Shown here: positions 28,432 to 64,000 of the stretch, in pieces | Layout: each line of letters starts with the position of its first letter | Position numbering within the stretch: position 1 is the first letter of the stretch | Source: Leucoraja erinacea | Taxonomy: Eukaryota | Assembly (NCBI RefSeq): GCF_028641065.1 | Contig: NC_073407.1 | Span: forward strand, 18,290,001-18,354,000 | Reading direction: 5' to 3' | Length of the DNA: 64,000 nt | The notes under the pieces: generated by a model | Database searches by the model: none | Seen by the model: only the letters and a program-made list of their open reading frames with translations | Told to the model about the DNA's origin: nothing | Program-made: the position numbers and the translations under genes

Positions 28432-28676
28432 CTACAAGTAAAAATCCACCTTGGTGGCTACGGTTTTGCAGCCTTTGTCTGAATAGATCTTTTCATTTTC
28501 TGGGAAGTATGTCATTTCATCAGCTACAGCAGTAATAATTTCCTCATCCGCCTCATAACCCCTGGCTACCAGTTCTTCCTTGACACACAACTTGACATGT
28601 TTATATTCCAGAGGAAGGAATGGGACAAAGTAGTCAATCACGTTTCTATCAATGAGGCTGGTGTGCCAGAATCCAC
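28432..28676 (-). CDS. tor1: Torsin-1 copy 1, exon 5 ([27 protein letters not shown]...[15 protein letters not shown])
   Basis: 245-nt terminal exon; sensor-II GCK motif; five exons give a 1008-nt ORF (335 aa). Confidence 0.96.
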
Positions 28677-30039: not shown

Positions 30040-30167
30040 TGTTTTTGTTATTGAAGACTCCGATAGACAGTTTACTGTCAAGATCTTTCAATTGAATTTC
30101 CTCCCTTTTGCTTCCTTTGTGCCAAAAGTCCAGTGCAATCTCAGTGATCCTCTCTCCACCTGCATTG
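30040..30167 (-). CDS. tor1: Torsin-1 copy 1, exon 4 (SNAGGERITEIALDFW...VFNNKNS)
   Basis: 128-nt AG/GT exon; sensor-1 SN. Confidence 0.96.
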
Positions 30168-31717: not shown

Positions 31718-31893
31718 CTCAGAAAAATGAAAATCGCCTTCCGGTACACCACTCCATCAATGTTATCATAGTACTCCAAATAAGGCTTAATGGCATCAAT
31801 AAGGCCTGCTTGCATCTTGTCCATTTCATCAAAAATGAACATGGACCTGTCACACGTGGACACATTACCACGGATCCATTTCTGCAGCTGCTC
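31718..31893 (-). CDS. tor1: Torsin-1 copy 1, exon 3 ([27 protein letters not shown]...KAIFIFLS)
   Basis: 176-nt AG/GT exon; Walker B FIFDEMDK. Confidence 0.96.
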
Positions 31894-33758: not shown

Positions 33759-34024
33759 CTTATAGTGGCTGAGATATTCAGGGTGAGGGAAGTGCAAAGT
33801 GGAGATAAACTGATGAACATATGCACTCTGCAGTCCATTTGTGTAAATGTTCTCAGCTAGTATTTTACTAATTAGGTTTTTGCCGGTCCCGGTCCAGCCA
33901 TGTAGAGACAAAGCTAGAGGTTTTTTAGGGTTTGGATTTGTGAAGAAACCATTAACAGCCTTCAAAACAACTTGCTTGGCAATATGTTGTCCAAATAGTT
34001 TGTTATCCAAGTCCATCTTCAAAC
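33759..34024 (-). CDS. tor1: Torsin-1 copy 1, exon 2 (LFGQHIA...HGWTGTGKN...HFPH)
   Basis: 266-nt AG/GT exon; torsin-type Walker A GWTGTGKN. Confidence 0.97.
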
Positions 34025-36221: not shown

Positions 36222-36414
36222 CTGTCAGGTTGAGTTTCACCCACTCGTCCTCACAACACTCCTGGAACTTGCAGTACAGTTTGGGGAAGGTGGTGAAGAG
36301 GCCGGTCAGAGCGGTGGCCACGCCGACTGCGATGCCCATACTGATGGGCTCCATGGCCGCCACAAAAGGGGTGGACAAGAGCACGAGCAGCACAGCCCGG
36401 ACCATCACCTTCAT
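36222..36414 (-). CDS. tor1: Torsin-1 copy 1, exon 1 (signal peptide, hydrophobic domain, YCKFQECC)
   Basis: ATG at 36414, donor G|GTAAAT; MKVMVRAVLLVLLSTPFVAA-MEPISMGIAVGVATALTGLF. Confidence 0.93.
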
Positions 36415-40602: not shown

Positions 40603-41300
40603 TGTAGCGGCCCCTGGTGGCGGCCTTGTTAATATCGAACCCTCGCGATTGACTGCGCAGTCACATGAGCGCGGGAGTTTCATCGCAGGTTCATTCTAGC
40701 GCCACGCGAATAGAATACACATCGTTAAAATTTTGCCGTCTATCTCGACTTGGGTGACTACTTTGTTTGCATTTCAAAAGAAAGAATTTTTGCACACCCT
40801 AAGTCTCGACTCGCCAAACTGGTGACCCTGTTAGTCCGAATGGATTTTGGGCATTTGACATGCAAGCCGCCGCCATCCCCGACGCCCAGCAAAAACGTTG
40901 TGGGTCTGAAGATGCCCATGTCGAAAGCACTGTAGTTGCACTCCGGAGCCTGCAGCTGACGGCTGAAAAAGGTCAACGGCTGCCAGCGGCCATCAACGAG
41001 CTGCTCCAGGTCACCACCTATAGCAGCATCCGAGGCGTATATGGTGAGTGCGGTAGGGGCGGAAGCACGCGGGTGCCCCAACATGGTAGCGTTTACCAGG
41101 GCTACCTTGGCACCCTCGAAAGAGGCGTCCGCCTCCTCGGACCACACGAGGTTCCGCGTTTTACCCGCCAGCCACCGGAACAGGAGGCTCATGATGTCAG
41201 CATCTGCCGGCACGAAACGGCGATAAAAATTCACCATGCCGATAATCTCCTGTAGCCCCTTCACGGAGAGCGGCCGGGAGAACTTCCGGATAGTCTCGAC
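40603..41300. mobile_element. Gypsy 5' LTR (40603-40817), PBS and an inverted RT-connection/RNase H fragment
   Basis: PBS TGGTGACCC at 40820; minus-strand ORF GMVNFYRRFVP...YASDAAIGGDLEQ...WQPLTFFSRQL...YSAFD. Confidence 0.85.
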
Positions 41301-41304
41301 CTGG

Positions 41305-42794
41305 CAAGAGAATATTTTTGTTTAGCATCTGTTTTGCAGCATTATTTTTCCTTTTGGATAGGATGACCCCTTTAAACTGAAGACGGGAGGTATGATTGAT
41401 ATGAAGATCCTGAAGGACCGAAAGCGAGAAAAGTGAGGAATCGAAAAAGCCATTTATTTGTTCATTTCATTTTTATACACAATAATATAGCCCAGCCGTC
41501 AGCCTTTCAGCCCGTGCTCCTTCAACATGGTGTTTTAAAATAAAGCTATACTTGAGGCCCAAATAAAGCCTGTTGCAGCTTTTAGACTAAATAGCAATCA
41601 TGTAACTATATGCTTTGTCATACCCACCAGTATGGTTATGCTGTTTCTGTGGTATAGAAGAATATGATGTAGCTTTACTGTTTTTATTTTCCATTCATTC
41701 ACCCAAATGACAAAAATGCAAAGTACATAAAACAGAAGTTTTGTTCATTTAAGATGTGTCTGAAAAATGAACGAACTACATGGACTAAAACTCCTATAAA
41801 CTGCTATCTGCATGTTTGGAAATTATTATAGCCTAGAATTTAACTCACCTGATTGTGTTTGCTGTACACCCTTTATACTGGCCAGGGTCCCATTTTGACA
41901 CACTCCATTCAAACTTGCCTGCTTCATTAGAAAAATTATTATTTTACAGTGGCAAGCTTTTTCTTGTAATGAAGGTGAATTAGAGAAATGTTGATGTACT
42001 AATAGGAGCAATACCCAACCGTCAAAAAAAATGTGCCAGTTCTGCACCACAGTGCCGAAGGTGCTGAATTATCGGAGTTTACTGTAATGTGAAGGGCAGA
42101 AGGCAGTGAAGTACAACTCGTGCCTCTTGTGCCACCTGGCAAGCTGGTGTGAGGTGCCTTAGTATAATTTAGACTTGACGCCTCTTTTCTCTCCTACCCC
42201 TTCCCCACCACATCTATCCTTATACCTCCATTCATAGAACAGTACCGCATGGGAACAGACCTTTCAGTCCAGGTCGAACATGACACCAAGTTAAAGTGAT
42301 CTCTCTCTTGCCTACATCTGATTCATATCTTGCCATACCCTGCATATCCATATGTCTATCCAAAAGCCTCTTAAATGCTATTATTGTATCTACCTGCACC
42401 ACAACCCTGGCAGTGCATTCCAGGCACCCACCAATATGGGGAAAAGCAACTTGTCCTGCACATCTCTCTTAACTTCTGCTCCCCTCACCTTAAACCTACA
42501 ATCTGTCTTTGACATTTTCACCCTGGCGGGAAAAGGACTCCATCTATCTTATCTAGCCCTCCCATAATTTTTTATAACCTCTATCAGGTCTCCCCTCAGC
42601 CTCCAACACTCCAGAGAAAATAATCTTATAGCTACCTCCCTGCCTTTAACCTGTCTGAAAGCACTTGGCCTATTTTCTGCACTCTTCTGCAACTTTGGGA
42701 AAGTGTTAAGAATGAAATGCAATCTATCAGCCCTTGGTATCAGTTGCAGGCATTGTGATGATCATTATAAACTCTCCAATCTTGCAATTGTGCC
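41305..42794 (+). pseudogene. C9orf78: Duplicated C9orf78 fragment (end of intron 3, exon 4 at 41362-41432, part of intron 4)
   Basis: Colinear with ~16250-17747; exon 4 identical 71/71 with splice sites intact; no other C9orf78 exons nearby. Confidence 0.92.
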
Positions 42795-46050: not shown

Positions 46051-46295
46051 CTACAAGTAATAATGCACCCTGGCGGCTACGGTTTTGCAGCCTTTGTCTG
46101 GATAGATCTTTTCATGTTCTGGAAAGTATGTCATTTCATCAGCTACAGCAGTAATAATTTTCTCATCCGCCTGATAACCCCTGGCTACCAGTTCTTCCTT
46201 GACACACAACTTGACATGTTTATATTCCAGAGGAAGTAAAGGGACAAAGTAGTCAATCACATTACAATCAATGAGGCTGGTGTGCCAGAATCCAC
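46051..46295 (-). CDS. tor1: Torsin-1 copy 2, exon 5 (...[17 protein letters not shown])
   Basis: 245-nt terminal exon, open frame; five exons give a 981-nt ORF (326 aa). Confidence 0.9.
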
Positions 46296-46365
46296 CTATC
46301 CAATTAAACAAAAGTACATTAGTATACAAAGATCACATCAGGCAAAGCGTCAAAATTATACAGCC

Positions 46366-48631
46366 CAAGGCTGCCAACATTGGGTGAGAGTTGGGAGTGA
46401 GAAATTGTGAGAGACCAAGCCCGAGGGAGCATAGCGACGGGGGGTGGGGGTGGGGAGTGGGCGGAGGGTGTCCCTCTCCCATTGGTACGGAACATTTGCA
46501 TTTTTCAGCTTGAAATTGTGCAATATGGTGCATACTGTAGTGAGTCTTTTAACTTACACTTGAATGCAATATATGCTTTAAATTGGATTGGAGCGTTTTT
46601 GAAAGGGGGGAGGCTGTGTGATCACTGGCCTTGGGGGAACCCGGTGAGGGAATGGAGCAACCGAGTGTGGAGAGGGTGTGGAAGAAGAGTGTCCCTCCTC
46701 CCAGGGTAGGAACTTGTTGGAATTTGATGTATTAAAATCATGTTTTAGTGCACTGTAGAAGTATGATTTCAATGTTTTTTGTATGAAGTATTTTTAAGAG
46801 GTAACTTTTTAAGGGGTAACTTTATCCACACAAAGGGTGATGGGTGTATGGAACAAGCTGCCAGAGGAGGTAGTTGATGCAAAGACCATCCCAACATTTA
46901 AGAAAAAGTTAGACTGATACATAGATAGGACAGGTTTGGAGGTATAGACCAAAAGCAGGTAGCGTAGCTGGGAGCGTAGGCGGGTGTGGGCAAGTTGCGC
47001 CGAAGGGCCTGTTTTCACACTGTATCACTCTATGACTACATTATACCTCCACCATGCATGAATGTTTCAAAATCAAGTGATTGAGTTTTATTGCCATGTA
47101 CTCAAGCATAAAAACATAGAAAATAGGTGCAGGAATAGGCCATCGGCCCTTCGAGCCAGCACTGCCATTCAATATGATCATGGCTATTCATCTAAAATCA
47201 GTACCTCTTTCCTGTTTTTCCCCCATATCCCTTGATGTCATTAACCCCAAGAACTAAATATATCCCTCTCTTGAAAACATCCAATTGGCCAGCACTGCCT
47301 TCTGTGGCAGAGAATTCCACAGATTCACAACCCTCTGCGTGAAGTTTGTTCTCATCTCAGTCCTAACTGCCCCCCCTTTATTCTTAAACTGTGACCCATG
47401 GTTCTGAACACCACCAACATCGGGAACATTTTTCCTGCAGTTACAGTAAGTGAAAATCTAGTAGGCAAGCAGGATGCTTTCACCAACCACCCCCATTTGA
47501 AGTCCACTATCTTCCACCGTATCTACCCAGTGCATGGTACTTACTTCCAGCAGCCACTGGTTGTCCTCCAGGATGCACCGAGCCACAGCCTGATTCATGC
47601 CGAATCACACCTGGCTGAATTCGGCAGAGACTCTCACGGCAGCGGTGCAACGCTTCGACGCCTCCGACGGCCCGGGACTCTTGCACTGAGGCTGCTCCAT
47701 GGCCGGAGCTGCAGTGAGCAACTCCCCAGCCCAGCAAACACTCACCAGCCCCGCTCCCCGTCTGCATCTGTCCCCGCCCCTGCTTCTGCTTCCAACACCC
47801 GTGGCCCATGCAGTTGATATGAGTGTTGAAATATTCGTTGATCACAGAATTTCTCACAACAGAGCGAGAGAAATTGGTGAAATGCTTGATTCTCACGCCC
47901 AATGCATGGGAGTTGGCAGCCCTGCCTCTCTATCCCCTTCTCCCTCACCCCCTCTCTCCCTCCCCTCTCTCTCCCTCCCACCTCACTCATCCCTCTCTCT
48001 CCTCTCACGTCTCTCACTTCGCCCCTCTCCTCCTCTCTCTTCCCCATTTCTCCCTCCCACCTCATTCTCCCCCTGGCTCTCTCCCCCCTCTATCTTTTTC
48101 CTCTGTCTCTATCTCCTCTTTCTCTTTGCCCCCCCATCTCTCTTTCCCCCTCTCTCTTTTACCACCCCTATCTCTTCCCCCCTCTCCCATTCTCTGCTAT
48201 CCTCTCACCCCTCTCTCTCTCTCCCCCCCCTCTCTCCCCCCCCCCCCCCTCTCTCCCCTCCCCTCTCCCTCTTCTCTCTCTCCATTCATCCCCCCTCTGT
48301 CACTCCCTTCTCTCTCCTCTCACCCCCTCTCTCTCTCCCTCCCGTCTCCTTCCCCTCTCTCTCTCTCCACCTCCCTTTGAGAGTCTGTCCCTTTGGCACA
48401 GAGACTCTCGCGGCAGCGGCGCAACGCTTCAGACGCCTCCGACGACCCGGGACGTGCGCTGCTCCATGAACTGCAACTAGCGACTCACCAGCCCTGCAAA
48501 CACTCGACAGCCCCGCACACACTCGCAGCCCCGCAAACACTCACCACAGAGCGTGAGAAATTTCTGATCAGCGTGAGAGTTTGCTTGAGGGCGTGATTCT
48601 CACGCTCAAAGCGTGAGAATTGGCAGCCCTG
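46366..48631. mobile_element. Non-autonomous TIR transposon with 5-bp TSD CAGCC (possibly hAT5-like), carrying nested LINE fragments and a CT-rich tract
   Basis: TIR CAAGGCTGCCAA / TTGGCAGCCCTG; CAGCC at 46361-46365 and 48632-48636; empty site in copy 1 (ATACAGCCATTC near 28742). Confidence 0.85.
47925..48378 (+). repeat. C/T-rich low-complexity polypyrimidine tract
   Basis: About 450 bp almost entirely C and T; explains the spurious Pro/Ser/Leu ORFs. Confidence 0.95.
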
Positions 48632-49816
48632 CAGCCATTCATATCTGAGCTCCGGTTATGTACCAATTCAATTTGCATGGTTTTAAAATTCTTCATTGCA
48701 CTAAACACATCACAATCTACGTAGTCTTGACCAAACCATAAATCCGTCAGGATCTCTAAAGATCATCAGCTCTGGTCTTGCATAATCAATCCACCATTTG
48801 TTCAGCTACCAGCATCCTCTAGTTCCTTCCCTTAACCTCTGCCTTTAAGATGCTTCATTGACCAATCATTTGGTCACCTGTGCTATTACCTGTGCTATTA
48901 CCACGGAATTAGCCTTCAACCAAACCTTGTTGAAACTTAGCAATAAATGTCTGTGCTCCTGAGACTAGAAGAAGAAAAGGCAATCCGCCAGTGCAGTTAC
49001 CTTAGATGGAAAACAAATACATCTGTAGATGTTGAAATCTGAAGCAGAGATGCTAGTAGAACTCAAGCACTATCTGTGGAAAGATAAATCAGTCAACATT
49101 TCCAGTCAGTGATCCTTCCTCAGAAGAACTTTCAGCACTTTGATTACCCTCAAGTAGTCAATACTGGAAAGCACATAAATGCAAACAGCAAGCATGTCAG
49201 AATAGAATTAGATGCATGCAGCTCCCAACATGAGCCTGTCAAACCTGTATAAGGAATGCCATAGATGTGCACTGGTAACTAGAATACTCATGGAAGTGGA
49301 AAAAGATATGAACAGATAAACAAAGGCACAATGTCCAAAAACGTCTAACATAGCCTTCATGAAATTGACAAGGATGTTTAGTTTAGTTTAGAGATACAGC
49401 ATGGAAACAGTCCTTTCGGCCCAGCCAGTCCACGTCGACCAACGCTCACCCATACACCAGTTCTATCCCACGCACCAGGGACAATTTACAGAAACCAATT
49501 AACCTACAAACCCGCACCTCTTTGGAATGGGGGAGGAAACCAACACCGTCACAGGGAGGATGTACAAACTCCATACACACAGCACCCGTAGTCAGGACCC
49601 AGGTCTCTGGCACTGGACGGCAGCAATTTTACTGCTGCGCCACTGTGCCGCCACAATGGTTGTACAGATTTCCAATTGGTGAGCATATTTTGTTCCAGTG
49701 TTCTTCATTGCACATTCCTCATGTTAAGCAAAAAAAGTATATATTAATCAAATTGTACAAAGAAGATTCCAAGTGCAGCTCATTTCAAACTGCCAAAATT
49801 TAGCATACATACTTAC

Positions 49817-49944
49817 TGTCTTTGTTATTGAAGACCCCGATAGACAGTTTACTTTCAAGATCTTTCAATTGAATTTCCTCCCTTTTGATTCCTCTGCGCC
49901 AAAAGTCCAGTGCAATCTCAGTAATCCTCGCTCCACCTGCCTGG
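49817..49944 (-). CDS. tor1: Torsin-1 copy 2, exon 4 (SQAGGARITEIALDFWRRG...VFNNKDS)
   Basis: 128-nt AG/GT exon, open; sensor-1 N to Q. Confidence 0.9.
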
Positions 49945-51466
49945 CTATTCACAACAAACAATAGTGATTTATAACAAAGAACCAAACACTAGTTGGCATA
50001 GGCTTAAGATGAGAGGGGAGAGATTTATGGGGAAAATTTTTCACTTGGAGTATAGTCTGTGTCTGGGATTAGCTGCCAGAGGAAGCTGTAGAAGTGTAAA
50101 CAATGATGCCTTTTAAAAGACATTTGGACATCTATATGGATAGGAAGGTTTCTGCGGGCTACAGGCCAAATGCAGGCCAACAGGACCAGGCCTGTATACC
50201 AACTTTGGTCAACTAGACATGGTGGACCAAAAGGCCAGTTTCATGCTGTACAGCTCTATGACGTCACAAAGGGTATCATCTGGAGCTTACAGGCTTTAAT
50301 ACACCTCAACTCAACAAAACATAACTACCCCATCCTTCTAAAGCATTTCTCCATCATGAGGCTCCAGAGAATTTATCATGAAATCTCTGATGGCATCTCA
50401 CTGTAGTACTGATGAAGTGATGGAACAGTTGGAGATGTCTTCTTTAAAATAAAATGTTAAATATGTCCTCCAAGCTGATTGTCGAATATTTGATTGTGTT
50501 ATTTTGCAGAAGACCAGGGAAGCTCCCTCCCGTGTCCTGACCAATACAAATCCCACAATCAATTTCAGGCACAGAAATTATCTGACTAATTATCAAATGT
50601 GTTTGTGGGAGCTGTTGTGCTCAGATCAGCTGGCCTGCTTCCTATGGGCAGCACAGTGGCATAGATATGAGTGCTCCTGCTTCAGCGCCAGCTGCCCAAG
50701 TTCAAATTTGATTGGGTGCTGACTGTGTGGAGCTTACATTCTTTCCTGTGACAAAGAGGGTCTCAAATATTCTCTCACATCCCAAAAATGTGCGGCATGG
50801 TTGGTTAATTAGCCTTGCGTGGGGTTGGTGGTAGAACCTGGAGGGAATTAATGAGAGTGTAGGTGAATAGGGAAAATTAGTGGGGAGGGAAATGGGACAA
50901 TTAGGAAATATGGAAATTACCACTTCCAAGTTATTTCATGGACTGTATAGTATTCTGGTCAGTATTTTATAACATGATATTACATGAATGCAAGTTAATT
51001 CTTATTCTTTAAGAATGCTTGTTTGGTGTTCAGGGGTTATGGGAAGAAGGCAGGAGAATGGGGTTGAGAGGGAAAGATAGATCAGCCATGATTGAATGGC
51101 AGAGTAGACTTAATGGGCTGAATGGCCTAATTCTGCTCCTAGAACTTATGAACAAACACAAATATAGGTCTTGAGGTTTAATTTGAACATCTTGTAACAT
51201 GGCATGCTTCAGTTGTTGCTCAGCTCTTAGACCACTGCTTGCTTTGCTGTCTGTTGTTCTACAATGACTGATCCTGCATTACAGTTATTCCCTCCATTAT
51301 AATTTCAATAGCATTTACAATATATTACAAAGCCTTCAGTAAATGTGCAATAATTGTCAAGAAAATAATGTACCCAATTACATTTCTATTTCAAATTCAG
51401 TATTTTTATTCCTTAAAGTTGATGATAGACTTTGTTCATGTGATTCACTATAAATATATCTTTTAC

Positions 51467-51642
51467 CTCAGAAAAATGAAAATCGCCTTCCGGTACACCA
51501 CTCCATCAATGTTATCATAGTGCTCCAAATAAGGCTTAATGGCATCAATAAGGCCTGTTTGCATCTTGTCCATTTCATCAAAAATGAACATGGACCTGGC
51601 ACACGTGGACACATTACCACGGATCCATTTCTGCAGCTGCTC
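51467..51642 (-). CDS. tor1: Torsin-1 copy 2, exon 3 (Walker [10 protein letters not shown] intact)
   Basis: 176-nt AG/GT exon, open. Confidence 0.9.
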
Positions 51643-53385
51643 CTAAGGATAGACATTTATTTTGTATGAAATATATTCACAGAAGCAACAACTCTTCACT
51701 CCACCACCACAAATCCCCAAACACACCTATTCTCAACACAAACACTGTTTCATACGGCATCACTGAGATGATTATATATTATCCCCAAGTCAGGGTTGAT
51801 TGATATTACAGGACTTTGCCTCATTGTGTCAAGAACAAAAGTCACTATAAATAATTGGTTGGCTGCTGAAGACGAGTAAACTTGACACTTGATATGCACG
51901 TATTGTTATGTAGCTGTCTGGTGAAGCAAGACATTTAAGTACAGAAGAGGGTTAGTTTTGTCGATTCTGCCTGTTTCACCCCATAAGAGAATTTTTTTAA
52001 ATCTCTACTTGAATCACCCACTCCCACATATAGAATGTCTCAAATACATGTTTAATCTTATTACTACCAAACTTTTGGATATTGCTGCTTCTTATAAGGA
52101 CCTCTGTTGTCGTTGATGCCATTTCCATGAAGAGACTAAGCAATTTATTCCACAAATCCTTTAGCTGTGGGGCAACCATTTTTCAGGATGTAAATACAGT
52201 ATCAAGGCGAATCCAGTAAATTAATATGCACTCACGTCAATAAACTTCACATGAATTACAAATTTAAGCAGAAGTACTCTGCGATGTAACCAGAATCATT
52301 ATTTGGATGGCAAATGGTCTGATTTAATGTGCCACCCATTCACAATTTTCTTTCCTACATCTGCCAAGGTCCATCTCCAAAGCATCGTACCAGTTCCAAT
52401 AGCTCTCAGAATGTACCTACATTACATGTGTAACAGGTTATTCTCCCTGATACTAGTCAGGCATCAGAAATGAGTCTGATCATCAAACATAGCCAATTTA
52501 TCAGTATATGAAGCTTATCTATCCTGCCTAACTCAAAGGCACCAATCTGGATTATTGCTTCTCCCAATGTAAGGGTGGGTGGCCTCAATGTGTTATGAAA
52601 TTTAAAAAATGAAATAACTTTTATTTTCATCAATGCTACAATTATTGCTTGTAATAAAATTGACCAAAACAAAATTGATGACATATTTGTCAATTCCTCA
52701 ATGAGTATGCTACCAAGTTATCTGCACTGAGTATTTAGAGCTCAACGTTCAGTTGGGTGGGATATCCTAGGCAGCCTCGTTTGTTTTATCTTCTGTAATC
52801 TTATGACCACCCAGCTAATCACACCAAGTCACTTTTGGGGGCATTTTTTCCCAATGTATGATTACAATTGCTTTGTTTGAGAACACTCCTCTCAAATGCC
52901 TTTGGACTTTTATATTACGTTAAAAAGGCACATTACAATGAAGCTATTGCGATGACATGCAGGAGAAAATTTGAAGCAAATAATCAGTATTGTTTTAATT
53001 TATGTAATGAAACATTAAATACAAAGAACTGATTTTCATGCGTCACTTTAAGCTCAATGTTTGGAGGTTGTTTAACTACTTATATTTTTATGCATTCACC
53101 AAAAGTCTACAATTAGATTAAAACCATAATTCACTTGGAGATCCATTATTTTATAAATAAACTTTTTAAACTGCATGATTAAAACACAGCATTCACCATG
53201 CACCAAATTTCCATAATTTCATTTATAATCCTTCTGAACACCTTAATTAAAATGCATAACTCACTGCTAATATCCAATACTCTCTATGCTACCCTTCACG
53301 TTTTGATTCTTTAACTGCGAGGAGCATTGCCCCACACAAAATATCCCATCAAGCAATTTAAAATGTATCCATACTCTGATGTTAC

Positions 53386-53651
53386 CTTATAGTCGCTGAG
53401 ATATTTAGTGTGAAGGAAGTGCACAGTGGAGATAAAGAGATGAACATTTGCACTCTGCATTCCATTTGTGTAAATGTTCTCAGCTATTATTTTACTAATT
53501 AGGCTTTTGCCGGTCCCGGTCCAGCCATGTAGAGACAAAACTAGAGGTTTTTTAGGGTTTGGATTTGTGAAGAAACCATTTACAGCCTTCAAAACAACTT
53601 GCTTGGCAATATGTTGTCCAAATAGTTTGTTATCCAAGTCCATCTTCAAAC
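53386..53651 (-). CDS. tor1: Torsin-1 copy 2, exon 2 (Walker A GWTGTGKS)
   Basis: 266-nt AG/GT exon, open. Confidence 0.9.
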
Positions 53652-54229
53652 CTGGTTATGGAAATAAAAGGTTCAGATTATCACACAAAGAACAAAATTC
53701 TTTAAAATGCAGAGTTTTACAACTGATACACATTTTCCACATTTTTATTGCAGAGCTGAAGGGATGTTAAACATTTGGAGATATTCCCTCTCCATCAGTA
53801 CATAAAGCAGAGGCACTTTGCTTTCTAATGTGGACATCACAGATCCCAAAGCATGAGGAAAGGGGGAATTATCCCTTGTGTCCTGGCCAATGTCTACCCT
53901 TAAGCAATGACCATGATGCTCTTTGGTGCATATTTACTTTACATAAATTGGCTGGCATATGAAGCAGGTTTATAATAGAAGCCATACTTTATTGGTTAAT
54001 GAACCACTTTGAGATAGCTCAAGGATATGAGAACAACTATACAATTTATTATTTTACTTCCTGTATATCTCTGTCTTGTATAAAACATGCCTCAGTTGTT
54101 ACAACTGCAGGAGCTGATACTGATCAATTTTCCAGCGATTCATTGCTTAAAAATGAAAGCATCCTATTAATGTGAAGTGCTTCGGTCCGAGTACAGTCCA
54201 ATAAAAACACAATCAATACCCCACCCCAT

Positions 54230-54915
54230 AAGTCAAGTCAAGTCAAGTCAAGAGTTTATTGGCATGCATCCCAGATAGGACAATGAAATTCGGCCTGTTC
54301 ACAGTCGCGGGACTTACTTACCATCACCCGGCGGAGTCCCAACATCAGAAGCCTGGATCGCCTCAGCACAGAGGGAGAACAAGGAGAGAAGAGACAAGGA
54401 CTTAAGACTTTTGCCTTCCATCACAATGAGGAGGTGCATGGTAGACTCACTGTGGTGGATGTTAAATCTGTGTTTATTGTGTGTTTTGTTACTTTATTCT
54501 ATGTTATGACTGCAAGGCAAACAAAATTTTGTTCAGACTGAAAAGTCTGAATGACAATAAAGGAATACAATACAAAATTCTTGCATTGCTGCAGTACAAC
54601 AGGATATCGTAGTCATAAATACAGATCAGATCAGTGTGTCCATATACCATAGAATACATATATACACACACATCAGTAAACAGATAAAGTGCAATAAGTT
54701 GTTATAGTTCATAGTTTGTTTGAAGTTGTGTTTAATAGTCTGATGGCTGGGTGGGAAATAAGCTGTTCCTGAATCTGGATGTTGCAATTTCAGGCTCCTG
54801 TACCTTCTTCCCAATGGCAGTGGAGAGATGAGTGTGTGGCCAGGATGGTGTGGGCCCTTGATGATGTTGGCAGCCTTTTTGAGGCAGTGACTGTGATAGA
54901 TCCCCTCGATGGTGG
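54230..54915 (-). mobile_element. Rex1/Babar-like LINE 3' fragment with (GACTT)n tail, specific to copy 2 intron 1
   Basis: Minus strand ...LPLGRRYRSLK...YFP; AAGTC microsatellite at 54230-54252; absent at the matching copy 1 site near 34510. Confidence 0.65.
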
Positions 54916-56144
54916 GGAGTGAAAATGTCTAAATTCTGACCTCGGACGGTTTCTGTGCTCAGTTACACATCTGCCATTCCTTAACAATGTCTTAAATGTG
55001 CTTCTTTTCTTACCCTGTAAATGTTTTTGACATTCTTAACGACACAAAGACTGCCTACTTCCATCTTTGTTTCATCATCTGTCCTACTTCATCTAATATC
55101 CTTAGGAAAACCTCATTCATTTACTTGTGTCACTCCAGATTCCAGTCCAGGCAAGTCTTCTATCCCCATATCTGGAATCTTCAATGCAGGCAGATTCCTG
55201 CGACTCGGCTGTGACAGGAATCAGTGTTGGCCCATCATAATTTATATTACAAATTAGATTAAGAGACTGTATGAAGCTAAAACAAAATATGTGAGTAAAG
55301 AATAGAACAACATGTTGATTGGTGTAGAGGTTTATCGATAATACTGATAGAGGTGGATGTTTCATGTAAAGATGAGTTCAAAATCATGATAGATATGGCC
55401 AAATTACACGACTTGGAAGCGGGGCGATGAAGATGGGAATTCATTATATCAGATATAAAAACAAACATTTTAAACATTGAGATTGGTAAATAGTGATGTA
55501 CAGTGTAATCTTGACCCGTTGGTTCATGTAAATATGTAAATAAGTGAGTACCAGCAATTGGGAAAGCAAATGATTTGAACGTCAAAGGGCTGAATGGTCT
55601 CCTCCTGCACCTAATCTATCTTAATTGCAGAGTTTTTAGTATTAGCTTTAGAGACACAGCATATTTTGGTCCACCAAGTCCATGTTGACCATCAATCAAT
55701 CACCTGTACACTAGTTCTATGTTACCCCACTTTTGCATCCTACACTACAGGGGCAATTTCCAGAAGCCAATTAACATACAAACCGGCACGTTTTTCGAAT
55801 GTGGGAGGAAACCGAAGCACCCGGAGAAAACTCATGCAGTCGCAGGGAGAACACGAAAACTCCATACAGCCAACAACCACAGGGCGTGGAAGTACAATCT
55901 CAGTTTAGAAATACTGATAACTGGAACCACCATCTCAGGCAAATAAATGCAGATCACAGCCAGAATCTCGCAATTAGACAGGCGCATGGATTTGCAGGAA
56001 TGGAGGGTTATGTGCAGGCAGAGGAGAGTAATTTAACCCAGCATCAATGTTCAGCACCGATATTGTGGGCTTTAGGGCCTGTTCTTGTGCTGTATTGTTC
56101 TATGTTCTGTGAGCATTGGAGGTCAGGAGACCTAATAAAAGTAT

Positions 56145-57160
56145 GGGGAGGTTCCACGGCAGTCGGGTCACGATCCATGACCCGTACTGTTGCTACGCTA
56201 CTCCAAATGGATTACCCGCGATGTACTACAGGTAGGCACTTACCATTGTTTCCAACGTAGCGGGCCCGTTAAAACCCGCAGAAAATGTCAATTTTTGTGC
56301 TGCAAATAATTATTGAAATCAGGGATAAGTGTGTGAGACATTTAGCCCACTTCAGAATTCGAAAAGTGAGGAGAAATGACGTTAGATAGAAGTGAGAGCT
56401 GAAGGGACAACAACAGAGAGCTTGGCGAACATTGGCCGTTTCCTCACTGCATTTGATCAACTAAGGCATTATTTGTGTTTTTTCTTGATTCCATTTGCAT
56501 CTAAAAAGTTTCAGAAGTGATAAATCTGGCTGTGATTTTTTTTAATCGCCCATGGTTCCCAAGTGGGTTTTTACATACAAAATGAAAACGCATCTGAAGA
56601 AAATTTTACAACCAGATTTATCACTTCTGAGAATTTTTAGATACCAAAGGGATCAAGAAAAAGCACAAATAATGTCAAGAAGGGATTCGGCCCAAAATGT
56701 CGCCCATTTCCTTCGCTCCATAGATGCTGCTGCACCCGCTGAGTTTCTCCAGCATTTTTGTGTACCTTCAATCTTCCAGCATCTGCAGTTCCTTCTTGAA
56801 CACAAATAATGCCTTACTGTTGATGAAATGCAGTGAGCAAACGCGATAATTCCCAATATTTTCAATTCCGATATCTGCACGGCCAATGTTTACCAAGCAC
56901 TTTAGGCGTAGCTGCTGTTGTCCCTTCATTTCACTTCACTTTTGGAATTCTAAAGTTGGGTACATGTCTCTCACACTTACCCCGATCCACTATTTTTTTC
57001 AGCGCAAAAATTCAACATTTTGGCGGTTTTTAACAGGTAGGAAAGTATGCGTTTCTAGCATTAATAACATATACCAGAAGTGACGGATGTCCTCCAGATG
57101 GATTGAGTGGCTCCGTGCGTCAAGCCCTATGACCCAGTGCCCTATGACGTGCAACCCTCC
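56145..57160. mobile_element. Foldback MITE with long internal inverted repeats and a nested pLTR-type repeat
   Basis: Imperfect TIR GGGGAGGTTCCACG / CGTGCAACCCTCC; internal arms ~56465-56540 and ~56600-56675 are reverse complements; absent from copy 1 near 35835. Confidence 0.8.
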
Positions 57161-57523
57161 TATATGAGAGGCTTCCTGTGGTGTACTGTTTTATTTATTT
57201 ATTACATTATTATAGAAACAACACTATATCAATGACCACTTTTCACTCTCCACTCATCAAAAGAGACAAATAAAGTTAAGATTAAAGAAATCAATTTCTT
57301 CTCCCTATTATTCAGGGCCAAGTAATTACTGGCTTATTACTGGATTTGTATCCAAATCTGAATTTGCATTGTAATTCCCCACAGCATTGTTCATTGTCAC
57401 AACCTATCTTTGGTCACAACAGAGAAAGCAGACGTGTTGCAAGGTGGCCTGTGGCATGCGGATGCAGCACAAATAAATAGCCGGTGTATGTTAACGTGGC
57501 AGTGAGATGTCACGACCATTTAC

Positions 57524-57689
57524 CTGTCAGGTTGAGTTTCACGCACTCGTCATCACAACACTCCTGGAACTTGCAGAACAGTTTGGGGAAGAGGCCGGTA
57601 AAAAAAGTGCCCATACTGATGGACTCCACGACCGCCAGAAAAGGGGTGGACAAGAGCACGAGCAGCACAGCCCGGACCATCACCTTCAT
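57524..57689 (-). CDS. tor1: Torsin-1 copy 2, exon 1 (signal peptide, shortened hydrophobic domain)
   Basis: ATG at 57689, donor intact; 166 nt versus 193 nt in copy 1 (27 nt lost in frame). Confidence 0.88.
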
Positions 57690-58892
57690 GTTGTCGGTTT
57701 CCTGGCGGCCGCCCCCTAACAGGCGACGAGGCACAAGACCCCGCCTCAACGCAGCGGCCAGCGAGCCCTGACAACCCAGCGGAAGAGCAGGCAGCGTCAC
57801 ATCCGCCCCTCTGACCTTCCTCCCCCCCAACCCTCAGACAGACATGTTTGTGAGGGGCATCCACACAGGCAGGAATATGGTGCTGACAACAGTCAACTTG
57901 TCCCTCACACTCACTATCACTCTTTGTCTCATTTTCTGGAGAGTTGGAACTGTTCAGTAAATCCAGCAGCATTTGTGACGAGAAGGGAAAAAAATGAATA
58001 AGTTTTGGAACGAATACAATTAAGATTATAGAACCCCATCTAATCCAATCAACATATTATTCTATTCCCTACTCACCTATTTATTTTTTGTTTCTTTTTA
58101 CGTGAATCTACTAATAATATGACAATTTTCTGGATGAGTAAACTGTTATCTTCGATCTTTTCCCCATAGTTTTAGACACATCCATATTTGTCCTCCTTGC
58201 AGAATTTATTTCTGGGGGGAGTCTCCAAATATCCAAATATACAAGGGCGGAAGATTCTTCTAAGTTTTGATTTGTGCTCAGAACCGTAAAGCCTTGACAG
58301 AGCTTGATGATTCAGGCACACGTCAAACGCAGGACAATTTTTTTGGACTTGAAATAAGATCTCTGAAGAAAAAAAATTCAGAGGATGCACAAAGTCCTCA
58401 AAAGCATTTCAATACTCATGTTTTTGGCAAAATCTGTAATTATAAATATAAAACCTGTTATATATTATAAAACACTGGGCAGCGGGTTCAATGATTTTCA
58501 AAAATGAATTGATTTAAGTATTTGATGCAAAAGATGACTGAGGTCTGTGAAGGAAAAGTGTGTGGAAGAAACTGAAAAGAGAGATATTACAAGAGACATC
58601 ATGAACACGATGGAATAAAAACAAGGCGCAACTCGGTAACATGATGGAATACTCCCTACTGGCCTTAAATCAGTGCAGCTCTTAATACCATCCATTACTA
58701 AATACTAATTTCCTCACTACCTGTATGTCCTATCTATACAATGCACAGCACTTGATTTGGCTGCTCCACTAACATTTTGGTGCAGAAGAGGTTTACCACA
58801 ATTTTGCTTGCATTATAGAGGGTATTAGCTATAAGGTTGGACAAACTTGGATTATTTTCTCTGTAATGTAAGAGTTTGAAGGGGAACCTGAC

Positions 58893-59387: not shown

Positions 59388-59629
59388 GACCTAACCGAAG
59401 TATATGAAATTATGAGAGGCATAGATAAGGTGGACAGAACCTTTTTCTCAGGGTGGAAATGTCAAAGACTAGACGAAAGAGCTTTAAGGTGGGAAGATGG
59501 AACTGCTCCTCTGCACCTCAAAGACATGTGGGTAACTGCAGCATTACTTTCCTAATTTTGTATTCAATTACCCTTGTGACAAGGATCAACATATCTGTCT
59601 GTTCTCTACCTGTTCATGTGTCTGTCTAA

Positions 59630-61695
59630 ATGGCTCTTAGACGACAAACCACCTGCACTGGTTTGTCAATGTCCAAGTGTGCCGGCTTAAGATGGTCCAC
59701 AAAGACAGTCTCATGCCTGCCGCCCATGTTGATGACAAAAGTCGTGGTGCCGTGTTGCAGAACCTGGAAAGGTCCCTCATAAGGCCATTGCAGTGGTGTA
59801 TGGTGAGAATCGCTGCGAAGGAAGACGTACCGGCAGTCCTGGAGGGCAGGTGGGACGTACGTGGTGGTGAGTCCATGGCGGGACGTTGAGACTGGAGAGA
59901 GCGCACCCACCATCTCCCAGAGGTGTGTCAGCCTGGTCGTGGGCGGTTCCTGATGTCGACGTGCCGCTGGGATGGTGGGCGCGCTCTCCCCAGTCCCAAC
60001 GTGACGACTACGGCTCGCAGCACACGGAATGGGCTTTCGTAGTCCCGTTGTAATGGCTAGCGGTGAGCATCCCTGCAGATGAAGATATAGGCATACTGTT
60101 GTAACACCGTGGGCACATGCACTGCAGACGAACCATGCCTGGCAGTGGGAACTGGGGCCAACGTGCTCACCCTTTGTCGAAGGCTGGCCAGCAGCGCTGG
60201 AGCTGATGCGACTTGACCGCGGGCGGCAGGCAGAAAATCCCCAGGCACCCGCAGGGCCGAGCCGTACACGAGCTCGGCCGAGGAAGTAGCCAAATCCTCC
60301 TTCGATGCGGTGCATGTACCAAGGAGGACCCAGGGCAGTTGGTCCACCCAGTCTGTGCCCGTAAGTCGAGCTTTCAGCGCCGACGGAACCTTTCGACCAG
60401 CCCATTAGCCTGCGGATGGTAGGCAATCATATGGTGCAACTGGGCACCGTAGAGCTGGGCTAGGGCAGACCACAAGGAAGAGGTGAACTGGGCCCCCCGG
60501 TCGGTGGAAATGTCAGAGGGCACCCCGAACCTGGCGATCCGGTGGTGGATTGGTTCACGAGGTGGCCTGAGGCTATTCCGCTGTCGGACACCTCCGCCAC
60601 GTCTTGTCCCCGGGCACTCGCGGCCAATTGGATAGCTAGGTTTGAGGTTCTGGCAGACATTTCCACCGACTGGGGGGCTCAGTTCACGTTCTCGTTGTGG
60701 GCTTCGCTGGCGAAGATATACGGGGCGCAGTTGCACCACATCTTCGCCTATCACCCTCAGGCAAATGGGCTCGTGGAGCGGTTCCACCGCCACTTGAAAG
60801 CGGTACTGAAGGCACGGCTCACAGGTCCGGACTGCGTCAACCAGTTGCCTCGGGTGCTCTTAGGCATCCGCACGGCCCCCAAAGCGAACTTGGATGCATC
60901 GTCCGCCGAGTTGGTCTGCGGCTCAGTTTTGCGGGTGACCAGGGATTTCCTCCCTGCATGGTTCGAGGGCAGCTGGAAGACATCCAGGCGGTGTTGGCGA
61001 GTCTCCGGCAGCTAGTGGGCGGCCTGGCTCCTGTGCCTACCTCGCGGCATGGGACAGCCCTGGTCCACGTGCCGCCAGAACATAAAAACTGCTTATTTGT
61101 TTTTGTCCGCAGGGATTTGCATCGGTCCGCACTGCATCGTGTCTACGATGGTTCGTTCTGGGTGTTGCGTCGCGACTTTCCAGTTGGACGCTGGGGGCCG
61201 GGAGATCGCCCCCGTCGCTCGGCTTAAACCGGCTCACCTGGATGTCTACAGCCCGGTAGTGGTGGCGTAGCCTCGACCTAGGGGCCGTCTGCTGGCCGAT
61301 CCAGTGGCACCTGCTGTGCTTGTTCTCCCCGCACCTCTTGCTTCTGTTCCTCCCACACCGTCAAGGTCTCCTGGCTTTGTTCCGCCAGCCTCACCTGTAC
61401 CGCCCGTCCCGTCTGTTGTTACCACGCGGGCCAGTCGTCGGGTCCACCCTCCTGCTCAGTTCCGTACCTCGGGTTCTGGGGGTGGGTCCTGTAGCGGCCC
61501 CTTGTGGTGGACTTGTTAATATCGAACCCTCGCGATTGGCTGGTACGGTCACATGAGCGCGGGAGCTTCTTCGATTTTTTCTGTAACCGTTCATTCTAGC
61601 GTCACACGAATAGATTACACATCGTTAAAATTTGGCTGTCTATCTCGACTCGGGTGACTACTTTGTTTGCACACCTTAACATCTCGACTAGCCAA
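59630..61695. mobile_element. Rearranged Gypsy integrase fragments (minus ~59630-60540, plus ~60542-61270), PPT and 3' LTR (61490-61695)
   Basis: rve motifs VDWFTRWPEAIPL, STD(R/W)GAQF, YHPQANGLVER and GPY/F module YEGPF; G-rich PPT before the LTR; AGTAG after the LTR. Confidence 0.88.
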
Positions 61696-62313: not shown

Positions 62314-64000
62314 ATAAACTAATGTATTCTTGTTTTACAGCGCACTGTAAATATATAATGTTCCACCACCCCAGCACCAGTCATTTTAGATTAAATTACT
62401 TTAGAAATGCAATTCACAAAACAAATCCAATTGAAAAGAATCTGATAAAATAACATGTATTTTCACATGGTGACATTTAAAAAAATAAAATAAAACCTTT
62501 ATACAGTGGAAAAAATAAAGCTAAAAATATCAGACTTTTCATGTTTTACCAAGTAACATGTGTTTATTTTAATCATGAGCCTGTCACATAAGGGACACTA
62601 TAACAAAGATTATTCTAGTATCTGTATGAAATATTTTGTATAGTAAAAGTAATTGCTAAAACAGACACTATTTGCCTTCTTAGGAAACGTATCCATCTTA
62701 ACTGGCTTTAGTTAAAAACAAATATATCCACTTTACATGATTTGACCTGTAAAAATGTTGACACAAAAATATCAGTACAAAACAAGAAAATTGTTGAACA
62801 AAAAGTCCATGTTGGATATGCTTTTTCACATTTGCTACAAAGGAGAAATTGAGTACCTTGTGCATGAATGGATTGTTGTGTGCATTGCAACATAAATTAG
62901 TTTCTTCTCGTTGTCATTTCTTTAAGTGGGACGGTGGGATTAAACTTGAACATAATATAGTGCTGATTTCTTTGCATGGTTCCTTCGTCAAGAGCATTTA
63001 CTCAATTTTAAATGGCCAAAAAAATTTATTTTCAAAGAAGTGCAGTGGCTCAATCTATGCAACCTGTCAAGCTATGCAATCATTTTCAACTAATTACTTC
63101 CCTACTGTATGTATGTAAACATGTGTGAAATTCTCAATCTTTAAATAGCAGCTTAAAATCACTACAGGAACAAACTGGCAAATTGAGATAGATTCAAATA
63201 GCGCAATCCCCAGGTAAATCCATCAACTGCAGCAATCAATTATCCCATTCTTTTTTTTATTATTAAAAAAGTGTCCAGTGTCAAAAAGCAAAATATATTC
63301 AATTTAAAAAACACACACATTCTACAAGTAAAAATCCACCTTGGTGGCTACGGTTTTGCAGCCTTTGACTGAATAGATCTTTTCATTTTCTGGAAAGTGT
63401 AATTTAATCAGCTCTGCTATAGGATCTTTGCCTGAGACTACAAGAAGAAAAGGCAATCCGCCAGTGTTGTAACCTTTGATGGAAAACAAATAAAACTGTA
63501 GATGCTGAAATCTGAAACAAAAGCAGAGATGCTAGAAGAACTCAAGCATTATCTGTGGAAAGATAAACCAGTCAACATTTCCAGTCAGTGATCCTTCCTC
63601 AGAAGAACTTTCAGCACTTTGATTACCCTCAAGTAGTCAATACTGGAAAGCACATAAATGCAAACTGCAAGCATGTCAGAATAGAATTGGATGCATGCAG
63701 CTCCCAAACCTGTCAAACCTGTCAAACCTGTATAAGGAATGCCATAGATGTGCACTGGTAACTAGAATACTCATGGAAAAATATATGAACAGATAAACAA
63801 AGGCACAAAGTCCAAAAACGTCTAGAATAGCCTTCATGAAATTGACAAGGATGTTTAGTTTAGTTTAGAAATACAGCATGGAAACAGTCCTTTTGGCCCA
63901 GCCAGTCCACGCCGACCAACGCTCACCCATACACCAGTTCTATCCCACACACTAGGAACAATTTACAGAAACCAATTAACCTACAAGCCTGCACCTCTTT
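62314..64000 (-). pseudogene. tor1: Torsin-1 copy 3: 3' UTR, truncated exon 5 (63322-63413) and intron 4, running off the window
   Basis: Colinear with 27410-28525, then with 29148 onward; acceptor and 5' part of exon 5 are deleted. Confidence 0.88.

What the first reader, a model, noticed from the sequence alone, without database searches (positions are those of the whole stretch)
49930..53530. Torsin paralog with a changed ATPase site: canonical Walker A (GKS) and sensor-1 Asn to Gln
Seen: copy 1 has GWTGTGKN and LSNAG; copy 2 has GWTGTGKS (AAC to AGC) and LSQAG (AAT to CAG, two base changes). Walker B DEMDK and the GCK motif are retained and the ORF and splice sites are intact. Established: torsins have a non-canonical Walker A ending in Asn instead of Ser/Thr, lack an arginine finger and need LAP1/LULL1 for hydrolysis; sensor-1 Asn helps position the catalytic water. 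Inference: two neighbouring active-site changes may give altered Mg/ATP handling, a substrate-trap or decoy torsin, or changed cofactor dependence.
Basis: partly seen in the sequence, partly recalled or inferred. Interest (0 to 1): 0.78.

Follow-up and report, generated by a model that had tools for sequence, protein, structure and literature searches.

The report
Skate torsin copy, altered ATP site
A skate carries extra, fast-changing copies of the nuclear-envelope enzyme torsin-1 next to a conserved one; one copy has lost much of its membrane anchor and carries a change that probably stops it splitting ATP, more likely through loosened selection than as a purpose-built decoy.

Summary
Spliced contigs match its exons 1 and 2 exactly. 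GKS is ordinary: two other torsins in this genome have it, Ser/Thr fills that site in 32 of 148 aligned torsin stretches, and human N109T changed nothing in a yeast assay. The sensor-1 Gln is the unusual change: 0 of 223 Tor1 stretches have it, and the same swap kills hydrolysis in p97. It is absent from the Amblyraja duplicates, may be one mutational event, and creates a rival splice acceptor 4 nt downstream. Best reading: a transcribed, ray-skate-family Tor1 duplicate under relaxed but not absent selection, probably ATP-binding, hydrolysis-poor and weakly anchored. A selected decoy is possible: Rhinoraja duplicates also trimmed the anchor, and skate duplicates carry E171Q and E171G. The statistics for that are marginal and post hoc.

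The parts
57524..57689 (-). Copy B exon 1: signal-peptide-like start and shortened hydrophobic segment (14 residues against 23 in copy A); Trp58>Cys
   Evidence: exact RNA-type contig X1 record 7 at 57522-57661
57591..57610 (-). Site of two in-frame deletions (18 nt and 9 nt) in the hydrophobic N-terminal segment; shared with copy D and, at protein level, with the Amblyraja duplicate
53386..53651 (-). Copy B exon 2 with Walker A GWTGTGKS and a cluster of changes in the STLHFPH segment (L136V, P139L, human numbering)
   Evidence: exact spliced contig X9 record 26
53503..53505 (-). Ser codon AGC replacing Walker A Asn (human N109)
51467..51642 (-). Copy B exon 3 with intact Walker B (FDEMDK)
49817..49944 (-). 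Copy B exon 4 with sensor-1 Gln and E212A
49941..49947 (-). TAG|C CAG: acceptor changed from CAG to TAG, Gln codon CAG (49943-49941, human N208) that is also a rival acceptor 4 nt downstream; its use would shift the frame and stop at codon 228
46051..46295 (-). Copy B exon 5: small domain, GCK kept, changes S315P, K325R, D327H, F269L, R260C
36222..36414 (-). Copy A exon 1 (conserved Tor1; full hydrophobic segment)
33759..34024 (-). Copy A exon 2 (GWTGTGKN)
31718..31893 (-). Copy A exon 3
30040..30167 (-). Copy A exon 4 (sensor-1 Asn)
28432..28676 (-). Copy A exon 5
63322..63399 (-). Stump of copy C exon 5 (A-like 3' end; the front of the exon and its acceptor are deleted). C exons 3-4 and all of copy D lie beyond the window

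Best explanation
Copy B is a transcribed tandem duplicate of the skate Tor1 gene, older than the Leucoraja-Amblyraja split, living in an unstable array (A conserved, B altered, C truncated, D decaying). Copy A does the ancestral job, so B evolves under relaxed but not absent selection. Shown: the sequence changes, the open frame, splicing of exons 1-3, the rate asymmetry. Inferred: B enters the ER, holds the membrane weakly because 9 of 23 anchor residues are gone, still binds ATP (Lys108, Walker B, GCK kept; Ser109 is harmless) and hydrolyses poorly even with LAP1/LULL1 because Gln208 crowds the catalytic water; C-terminal and interface changes may also weaken activator binding. The Ser is a tolerated old change; the Gln is a recent passenger, possibly one slippage event, with no shown function.
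For: 36 of 40 A-B replacement changes fall on B's side, 4 on A's, by protein outgroups (p 2e-7). A-B replacement divergence 40/757 equals intron divergence 221/4128. Replacement against silent on B's side is not significant (36/757 against 5-7/197, p 0.24-0.57). Pooled skate duplicates hit conserved sites 22 times against 28.2 expected if neutral (65 derived states, p 0.077). 7 of 13 D-only changes hit conserved sites, and C is truncated. Gln208 is found in no Amblyraja or Rhinoraja duplicate, nor in C or D. Ser/Thr at the Walker A site: 32 of 148 stretches among 50%-cluster representatives, 4 of 237 in the near Tor1 set, and native in loci L005 and L006 of this genome. N109T without effect (PMC5628414). 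N348Q abolishes p97 hydrolysis while nucleotide binding stays (PMC10914628). The hydrophobic segment gives membrane association and retention (10.1101/2021.12.09.472013).
Against: B's changes avoid conserved sites (5 of 28 against 104 of 271 sites, p 0.023), so selection is not absent. B and D keep open frames where intron indel rates predict 4.4 frameshifts (P about 0.01; introns are more indel-prone than exons). 36 replacement changes exceed the 20 expected if intron divergence splits evenly between A and B (p 0.001; p 0.09 if 70% lies on B's side). Rhinoraja duplicates, which group with their own intact gene (96/98), also lost 6 anchor residues and one has GKT. 6 of 28 B changes fall in a 25-residue activator-interface list I compiled from two papers (p 0.03, post hoc).
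Confidence: 0.55

Rival explanations
1. Selected decoy: skates keep membrane-loosened, ATP-locked Tor1 copies that act like the laboratory EQ trap mutants, soaking up LAP1/LULL1 or joining Tor1 oligomers and damping them, perhaps against nuclear-egress viruses.
For: Anchor trimmed in both Rajidae and Rhinoraja duplicates. Hydrolysis residues hit three times (N208Q in B, E171Q in an Amblyraja module, E171G in a Rhinoraja copy) against 0.8-1.0 expected, p 0.05-0.09; Asn109 hit twice against 0.27-0.35, p 0.03-0.05; G102/G107/K108 never hit against 0.8-1.0 expected. Open frame, sparing of conserved sites, excess of replacement changes. EQ torsins are dominant-negative and slightly lower pseudorabies virus titres (PMC7140721 passages).
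Against: All these tests are post hoc and marginal, and the sites were chosen after seeing them. Each hydrolysis hit is private to one copy. Overall the duplicates are near neutral at conserved sites. B's interface changes (L136V, E212A, D327H) would weaken, not favour, cofactor trapping (residue lists in PMC4999309 and PMC6048259). No link to viruses was tested.
Confidence: 0.27
2. Copy B is a transcribed gene in the first stage of becoming a pseudogene: the exon-4 change shifts splicing to the new CAG, most transcripts end at codon 228, and the Gln is rarely made.
For: Acceptor weakened to TAG with a new CAG|G 4 nt downstream; its use gives a stop 48 nt before the last junction. Neighbours C and D are decaying. 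Anchor deletion, A20V at the presumed signal-peptide cut site (inference; no predictor run) and two new cysteines.
Against: The first AG is still present and the database model P0127 uses it. No stop or frameshift after 36 replacement changes, and conserved sites are spared.
Confidence: 0.14
3. Assembly or base-calling artefact.
For: The array is repetitive and mosaic: D is B-like in exons 1 and 5 but A-like at several exon-2 sites.
Against: B-exact contig pieces in runs X1 and X9; A-B introns differ by 5.35%; the deletion, Ser109 and four more changes are shared with an Amblyraja model.
Confidence: 0.04

Closest known systems
TorsinA/TorsinB (Tor1; PDB 5J1S, 6OIF; Pfam Torsin PF06309 + TOR1A_C PF21376)
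   Same: Same domains over cut-off, E 4e-127 to human TorsinA, five exons, Walker A Lys, Walker B, both redox cysteines and GCK, two glycosylation sequons; 85% identical to copy A.
   Different: Ser for Asn109, Gln for Asn208, hydrophobic segment 14 residues against 23 (summed hydropathy 15.5 against 29.9), changes at P139, F269, S315, D327.
Torsin2A / Torsin4A (labels for L005 and L006 are my assignment from recall)
   Same: Native GKS in this genome; Torsin2A and 3A lack the hydrophobic domain (PMC5425593 passage).
   Different: Those are ancient paralogs (47% and 36% identity over exon 2); B is a young Tor1 copy that drifts toward similar features and has also lost sensor-1 Asn.
p97 N348Q and TorsinA E171Q laboratory trap mutants
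   Same: Same kind of change at a water-positioning residue; N348Q abolishes hydrolysis with binding kept; E171Q binds but does not hydrolyse.
   Different: B is natural, carries some 35 other changes, and has not been assayed; torsins need an arginine in trans, so transfer from p97 is inference.
Divergent tandem Tor1 duplicates of teleosts
   Same: GKT in P0019, P0041, P0120, and Walker B Glu-to-Gly in modules of P0003: the same drift in other fish duplicates.
   Different: Separate duplications; none has sensor-1 Gln.

Membership tests
Torsin family / Tor1 | Torsin and TOR1A_C domains | tested here: met
   174.3 and 85.9 bits against cut-offs of 27
Torsin family / Tor1 | Descent from Tor1 | tested here: met
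   Groups inside the skate Tor1 clade 100/99, Rajidae duplicates 96/97 (17 rows, 187 columns, exons 2-4 only); same exon structure
Torsin family / Tor1 | Walker A Lys and Walker B Asp-Glu | tested here: met
Torsin family / Tor1 | Non-canonical Walker A Asn (Tor1-typical, 233 of 237 stretches) | tested here: not met
   Ser
Torsin family / Tor1 | Sensor-1 Asn (222 of 223 stretches) | tested here: not met
   Gln
Torsin family / Tor1 | Sensor-2 GCK and partner cysteine | tested here: met
   Cys276 and Cys315 of B
Torsin family / Tor1 | Full hydrophobic N-terminal membrane anchor | tested here: not met
   9 of 23 residues deleted
Torsin family / Tor1 | Cleaved signal peptide, ER-lumen location | not testable with these tools
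   First 17 residues as in copy A; A20V lies at the presumed cut site; no predictor available
Torsin family / Tor1 | LAP1/LULL1-stimulated ATPase | not testable with these tools
   Needs an assay; three LAP1-domain genes exist in the genome
Pseudogene | Stop codon or frameshift | tested here: not met
   Open 326-codon frame
Pseudogene | No spliced transcript | tested here: not met
   B-exact spliced contig pieces for exons 1 and 2
Pseudogene | Neutral evolution | tested here: inconclusive
   Replacement rate near or above intron rate, but conserved sites spared
Trap or decoy pseudo-ATPase | Binds ATP and cofactor, no hydrolysis | not testable with these tools
   Predicted by analogy only
Trap or decoy pseudo-ATPase | Inactivating change kept across species | tested here: not met
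   Gln208 only in B; E171Q and E171G private to other copies

The most novel reading that the evidence does not exclude
Skates have repeatedly evolved, and selection keeps, membrane-loosened Tor1 copies locked in the ATP state by different routes (N208Q, E171Q, E171G): natural counterparts of the dominant-negative trap mutants that tune torsin-LAP1/LULL1 activity at the nuclear envelope, in some transcripts perhaps fused in tandem to a second AAA module.
Probability: 0.2. Interest if true: 0.72.

Novelty: new variant of a known kind. Interest (0 to 1): 0.4.

Why it matters
If B is only drifting, it is a tidy case of asymmetric evolution after tandem duplication and a natural allele series for torsin active-site and anchor residues. 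The sensor-1 Gln is still a variant not seen in any other torsin surveyed here. If it is a kept trap, it would be a natural dominant-negative torsin, the kind of molecule so far made only in the laboratory, and its bound partners could point to the long-sought torsin substrates.

Tried and rejected
Run search: no RNA holder listed on record; runs were only guessed to be RNA. 4 of 24 listed runs were laid, all as contigs, on 49700-57800 only (exon 5 left out). The rows shown give no B-type contig across the Gln codon, the B exon 3-4 junction or the three exon-3 differences; the listed exon 3-4 joints are copy-A type. Contigs drop rare variants and 248 letter rows and 250 joint rows were hidden, so this says nothing either way. 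No exon 4-to-exon 2 joint was among the rows shown. Single-sequence structure prediction of B failed (mean pLDDT 38.7) and was not used; no fold search or complex prediction was run, as neither would resolve point changes. Pairwise dN/dS A-B of 1.67 is not significant and included one misaligned codon, so it was replaced by the counts. The one sensor-1 'Gln' among representatives (P0263) lies in unrelated sequence and was rejected. Rejected: that GKS is a restoring, gain-of-function change; that the two changes arose together; a microinversion as origin of the Gln (reverse complement does not fit; checked by eye). Literature searches found no paper on skate torsin duplicates or on a torsin N208 mutant; one search listed 10 of 565 papers, none holding 'torsin'. 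Scan notes: nothing. No DNA of other skates was available, so no codon model across species.

Full report
Setting. The window is G000:C31:18290001-18354000. Database proteins identical to the two complete window genes carry the source name Leucoraja erinacea torsin-1A-like (P0128 = copy A, P0127 = copy B). Sharks and non-skate rays in the lists have one such full-length gene each in the clusters I read; I did not search their genomes.

Observation. Both motifs are as described: Ser codon AGC at 53505-53503 and Gln codon CAG at 49943-49941 on the minus strand. Walker B and GCK are kept, the frame is open for 326 codons and all four introns are GT..AG. One detail was missed: B's exon-4 boundary reads TAG|CCAGGCAGG where A, C and D read CAG|CAATGC. 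Three bases changed within seven, the result is a CAGG-CAGG repeat (so the Gln may be one slippage event; inference), and the new AG, if used, ends the protein at codon 228, 48 nt before the last junction.

The array. Reading 10 kb below and 48 kb above the window shows four copies on the minus strand: A (36414-28432, conserved), B (57689-46051), C (exons 3 and 4 at C31:18356180 and 18354425 plus an exon-5 stump at window 63399-63322) and D (C31:18385638-18364321, open frame, with W103G, H140Y, D173N, K184M, D264G in human numbering). B and D share two in-frame deletions of 18 and 9 nt that cut the hydrophobic segment from 23 to 14 residues. That segment gives TorsinA its membrane association and retention (10.1101/2021.12.09.472013, passages). 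D is B-like in exons 1 and 5 but A-like at several exon-2 and exon-3 sites where B agrees with the Amblyraja duplicate, so conversion or unequal crossover has mixed the copies.

Other skates. Amblyraja models have a duplicate with the same 9-residue loss, GKS, V136, T141, K142 and T177, but sensor-1 Asn; another module has E171Q. Rhinoraja has an intact gene and two copies with a 6-residue loss at the same place, one with GKT and E171G. On a 17-row tree of exons 2-4 the Leucoraja and Amblyraja duplicates form a clade (96/97) and the Rhinoraja copies group with their own intact gene (96/98). So the B lineage predates the Leucoraja-Amblyraja split, the Ser is old, the Gln is recent, and the Rhinoraja copies are either a separate duplication or homogenised old ones.

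How unusual are the two changes? Counts are per aligned stretch. Leaving out nine Leucoraja and Amblyraja duplicate models, the near Tor1 set has Asn in 233 of 237 Walker A sites (4 Thr) and in 222 of 223 sensor-1 sites; among the best 150 of 1906 representatives at 50% identity, 32 of 148 have Ser or Thr in Walker A and 131 of 144 have sensor-1 Asn, with no true Gln. Two other torsin genes of this genome have GKS (L005, L006; the labels Tor2A and Tor4A are recalled). Human N109T did not alter luciferase refolding in yeast (PMC5628414, passages; the data are in a supplement I did not see), although Asn109 makes the usual bond to the Walker B Asp (10.1101/2022.06.23.497301, passage). In p97, N348Q alone fully abolished hydrolysis while nucleotide binding stayed, through crowding by the longer side chain (PMC10914628, passages). 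The Gln is therefore the change that matters.

Expression. Four of 24 listed runs were laid as contigs. X9 record 26 matches 53385-53534 with no difference, where A differs at 11 and D at 15 letters; the joint table shows the exon 2-3 intron skipped at a depth equal to records 26 and 27 together (my sum). X1 record 7 matches 57522-57661 without difference or gap, across both deletions and the one site that separates B from D. The runs are only guessed to be RNA, but the GT..AG skips mark spliced molecules. X1 record 4 differs from B at 6 letters where A differs at 12 and D at 15, hinting at another allele or copy. In X17, which covers all bins, part of the depth at 51558 carries B's own letter. 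Whether the Gln codon is spliced in remains open.

Selection. Outside the deletions A and B differ by 40 replacement and about 7 silent changes; outgroups put 36 replacement changes on B's side and 4 on A's (one of the 36 is ambiguous). Replacement divergence (40/757) equals intron divergence (221/4128). Against silent sites the excess is not significant (p 0.24-0.57, or 0.04 only if just 3 silent changes are B's); against an even split of intron divergence it is (36 against 20, p 0.001), but that fades to p 0.09 at a 70% share, and conversion undermines the clock. B spares conserved sites (5 of 28 against 104 of 271, from 225 proteins, 17 left out; p 0.023), D does not (7 of 13). Open frames in B and D are unlikely at intron indel rates (4.4 expected, P about 0.01), a rate that overstates exons. 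Six of 28 B changes fall in 25 interface residues compiled from passages of PMC4999309 and PMC6048259 (p 0.03, post hoc; two are conservative). Pooling nine duplicate modules, 22 of 65 derived states hit conserved sites against 28.2 expected (p 0.077); hydrolysis residues were hit 3 times (0.8-1.0 expected), Asn109 twice (0.3), binding residues never (0.8-1.0). These are hints, chosen after the fact.

Mechanism and verdict. Most likely (0.55) B is a redundant, still-expressed copy under loosened selection whose product binds ATP, hydrolyses poorly and holds the membrane weakly. A selected trap or decoy (0.27) fits the recurring anchor loss and hydrolysis hits, and EQ torsins are dominant-negative (PMC7140721, passages), but every inactivating change is private to one copy and B's interface changes argue against tight cofactor trapping. 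Early decay through the new acceptor (0.14) and artefact (0.04) remain. By descent B is a Tor1 paralog; it fails three Tor1-typical features, so it is a new variant of a known kind. Papers were seen as search listings and passages only (also PMC5425593; PMC7175109); no supplements were read. No paper on these duplicates turned up in nine searches.

Noticed in passing
G000:C31:18385638 to window 46051 (P0001, P0002, P0126; Amblyraja P0121-P0125): Database models in two skate species join exon 4 of one copy to exon 2 of the next, giving torsins with two AAA modules in tandem (here D1-D2-C3-C4-B2-B3-B4-B5). Could be real read-through, a chimeric model, or a back-spliced exon 2-4 circle mapped onto duplicates.
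   Followed up: partly
L013-L015 (G000:C10:38141385-38207936): Three LAP1_C-domain genes in a row, 44-53% identical, all with the WSR arginine motif; two (LAP1, LULL1) are the usual number by recall.
   Followed up: partly
P0122 (Amblyraja), P0129 (Rhinoraja): Natural Walker B changes E171Q and E171G in skate Tor1 duplicates; E171Q is the standard laboratory trap mutation.
   Followed up: partly
L012:6217-6750 (minus strand): Exon of a ubiquitin hydrolase-like gene downstream of copy A (atlas score 0.91, UCH; no Pfam hit); USP20 beside TOR1 genes is recalled synteny.
   Followed up: partly
window 46365-48632: A 2.3-kb insertion in intron 4 of B, shared with D and absent from A, with a CT-rich low-complexity tract at 47925-48377.
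   Followed up: no
window 54320-54439 and G000:C31:18381045-18381164: A stretch in intron 1 of B and D is used as an alternative first exon in model P0002.
   Followed up: no
window 40761-41321, 59629-61224: Degraded retrotransposon reverse-transcriptase and integrase-like fragments between the torsin copies (by eye from translations); such repeats may seed unequal crossover.
   Followed up: no
P0003, P0019, P0041, P0120: Teleost Tor1 duplicates show the same drift (GKT, Walker B Glu-to-Gly), suggesting repeated birth and decay of Tor1 copies in fishes.
   Followed up: no
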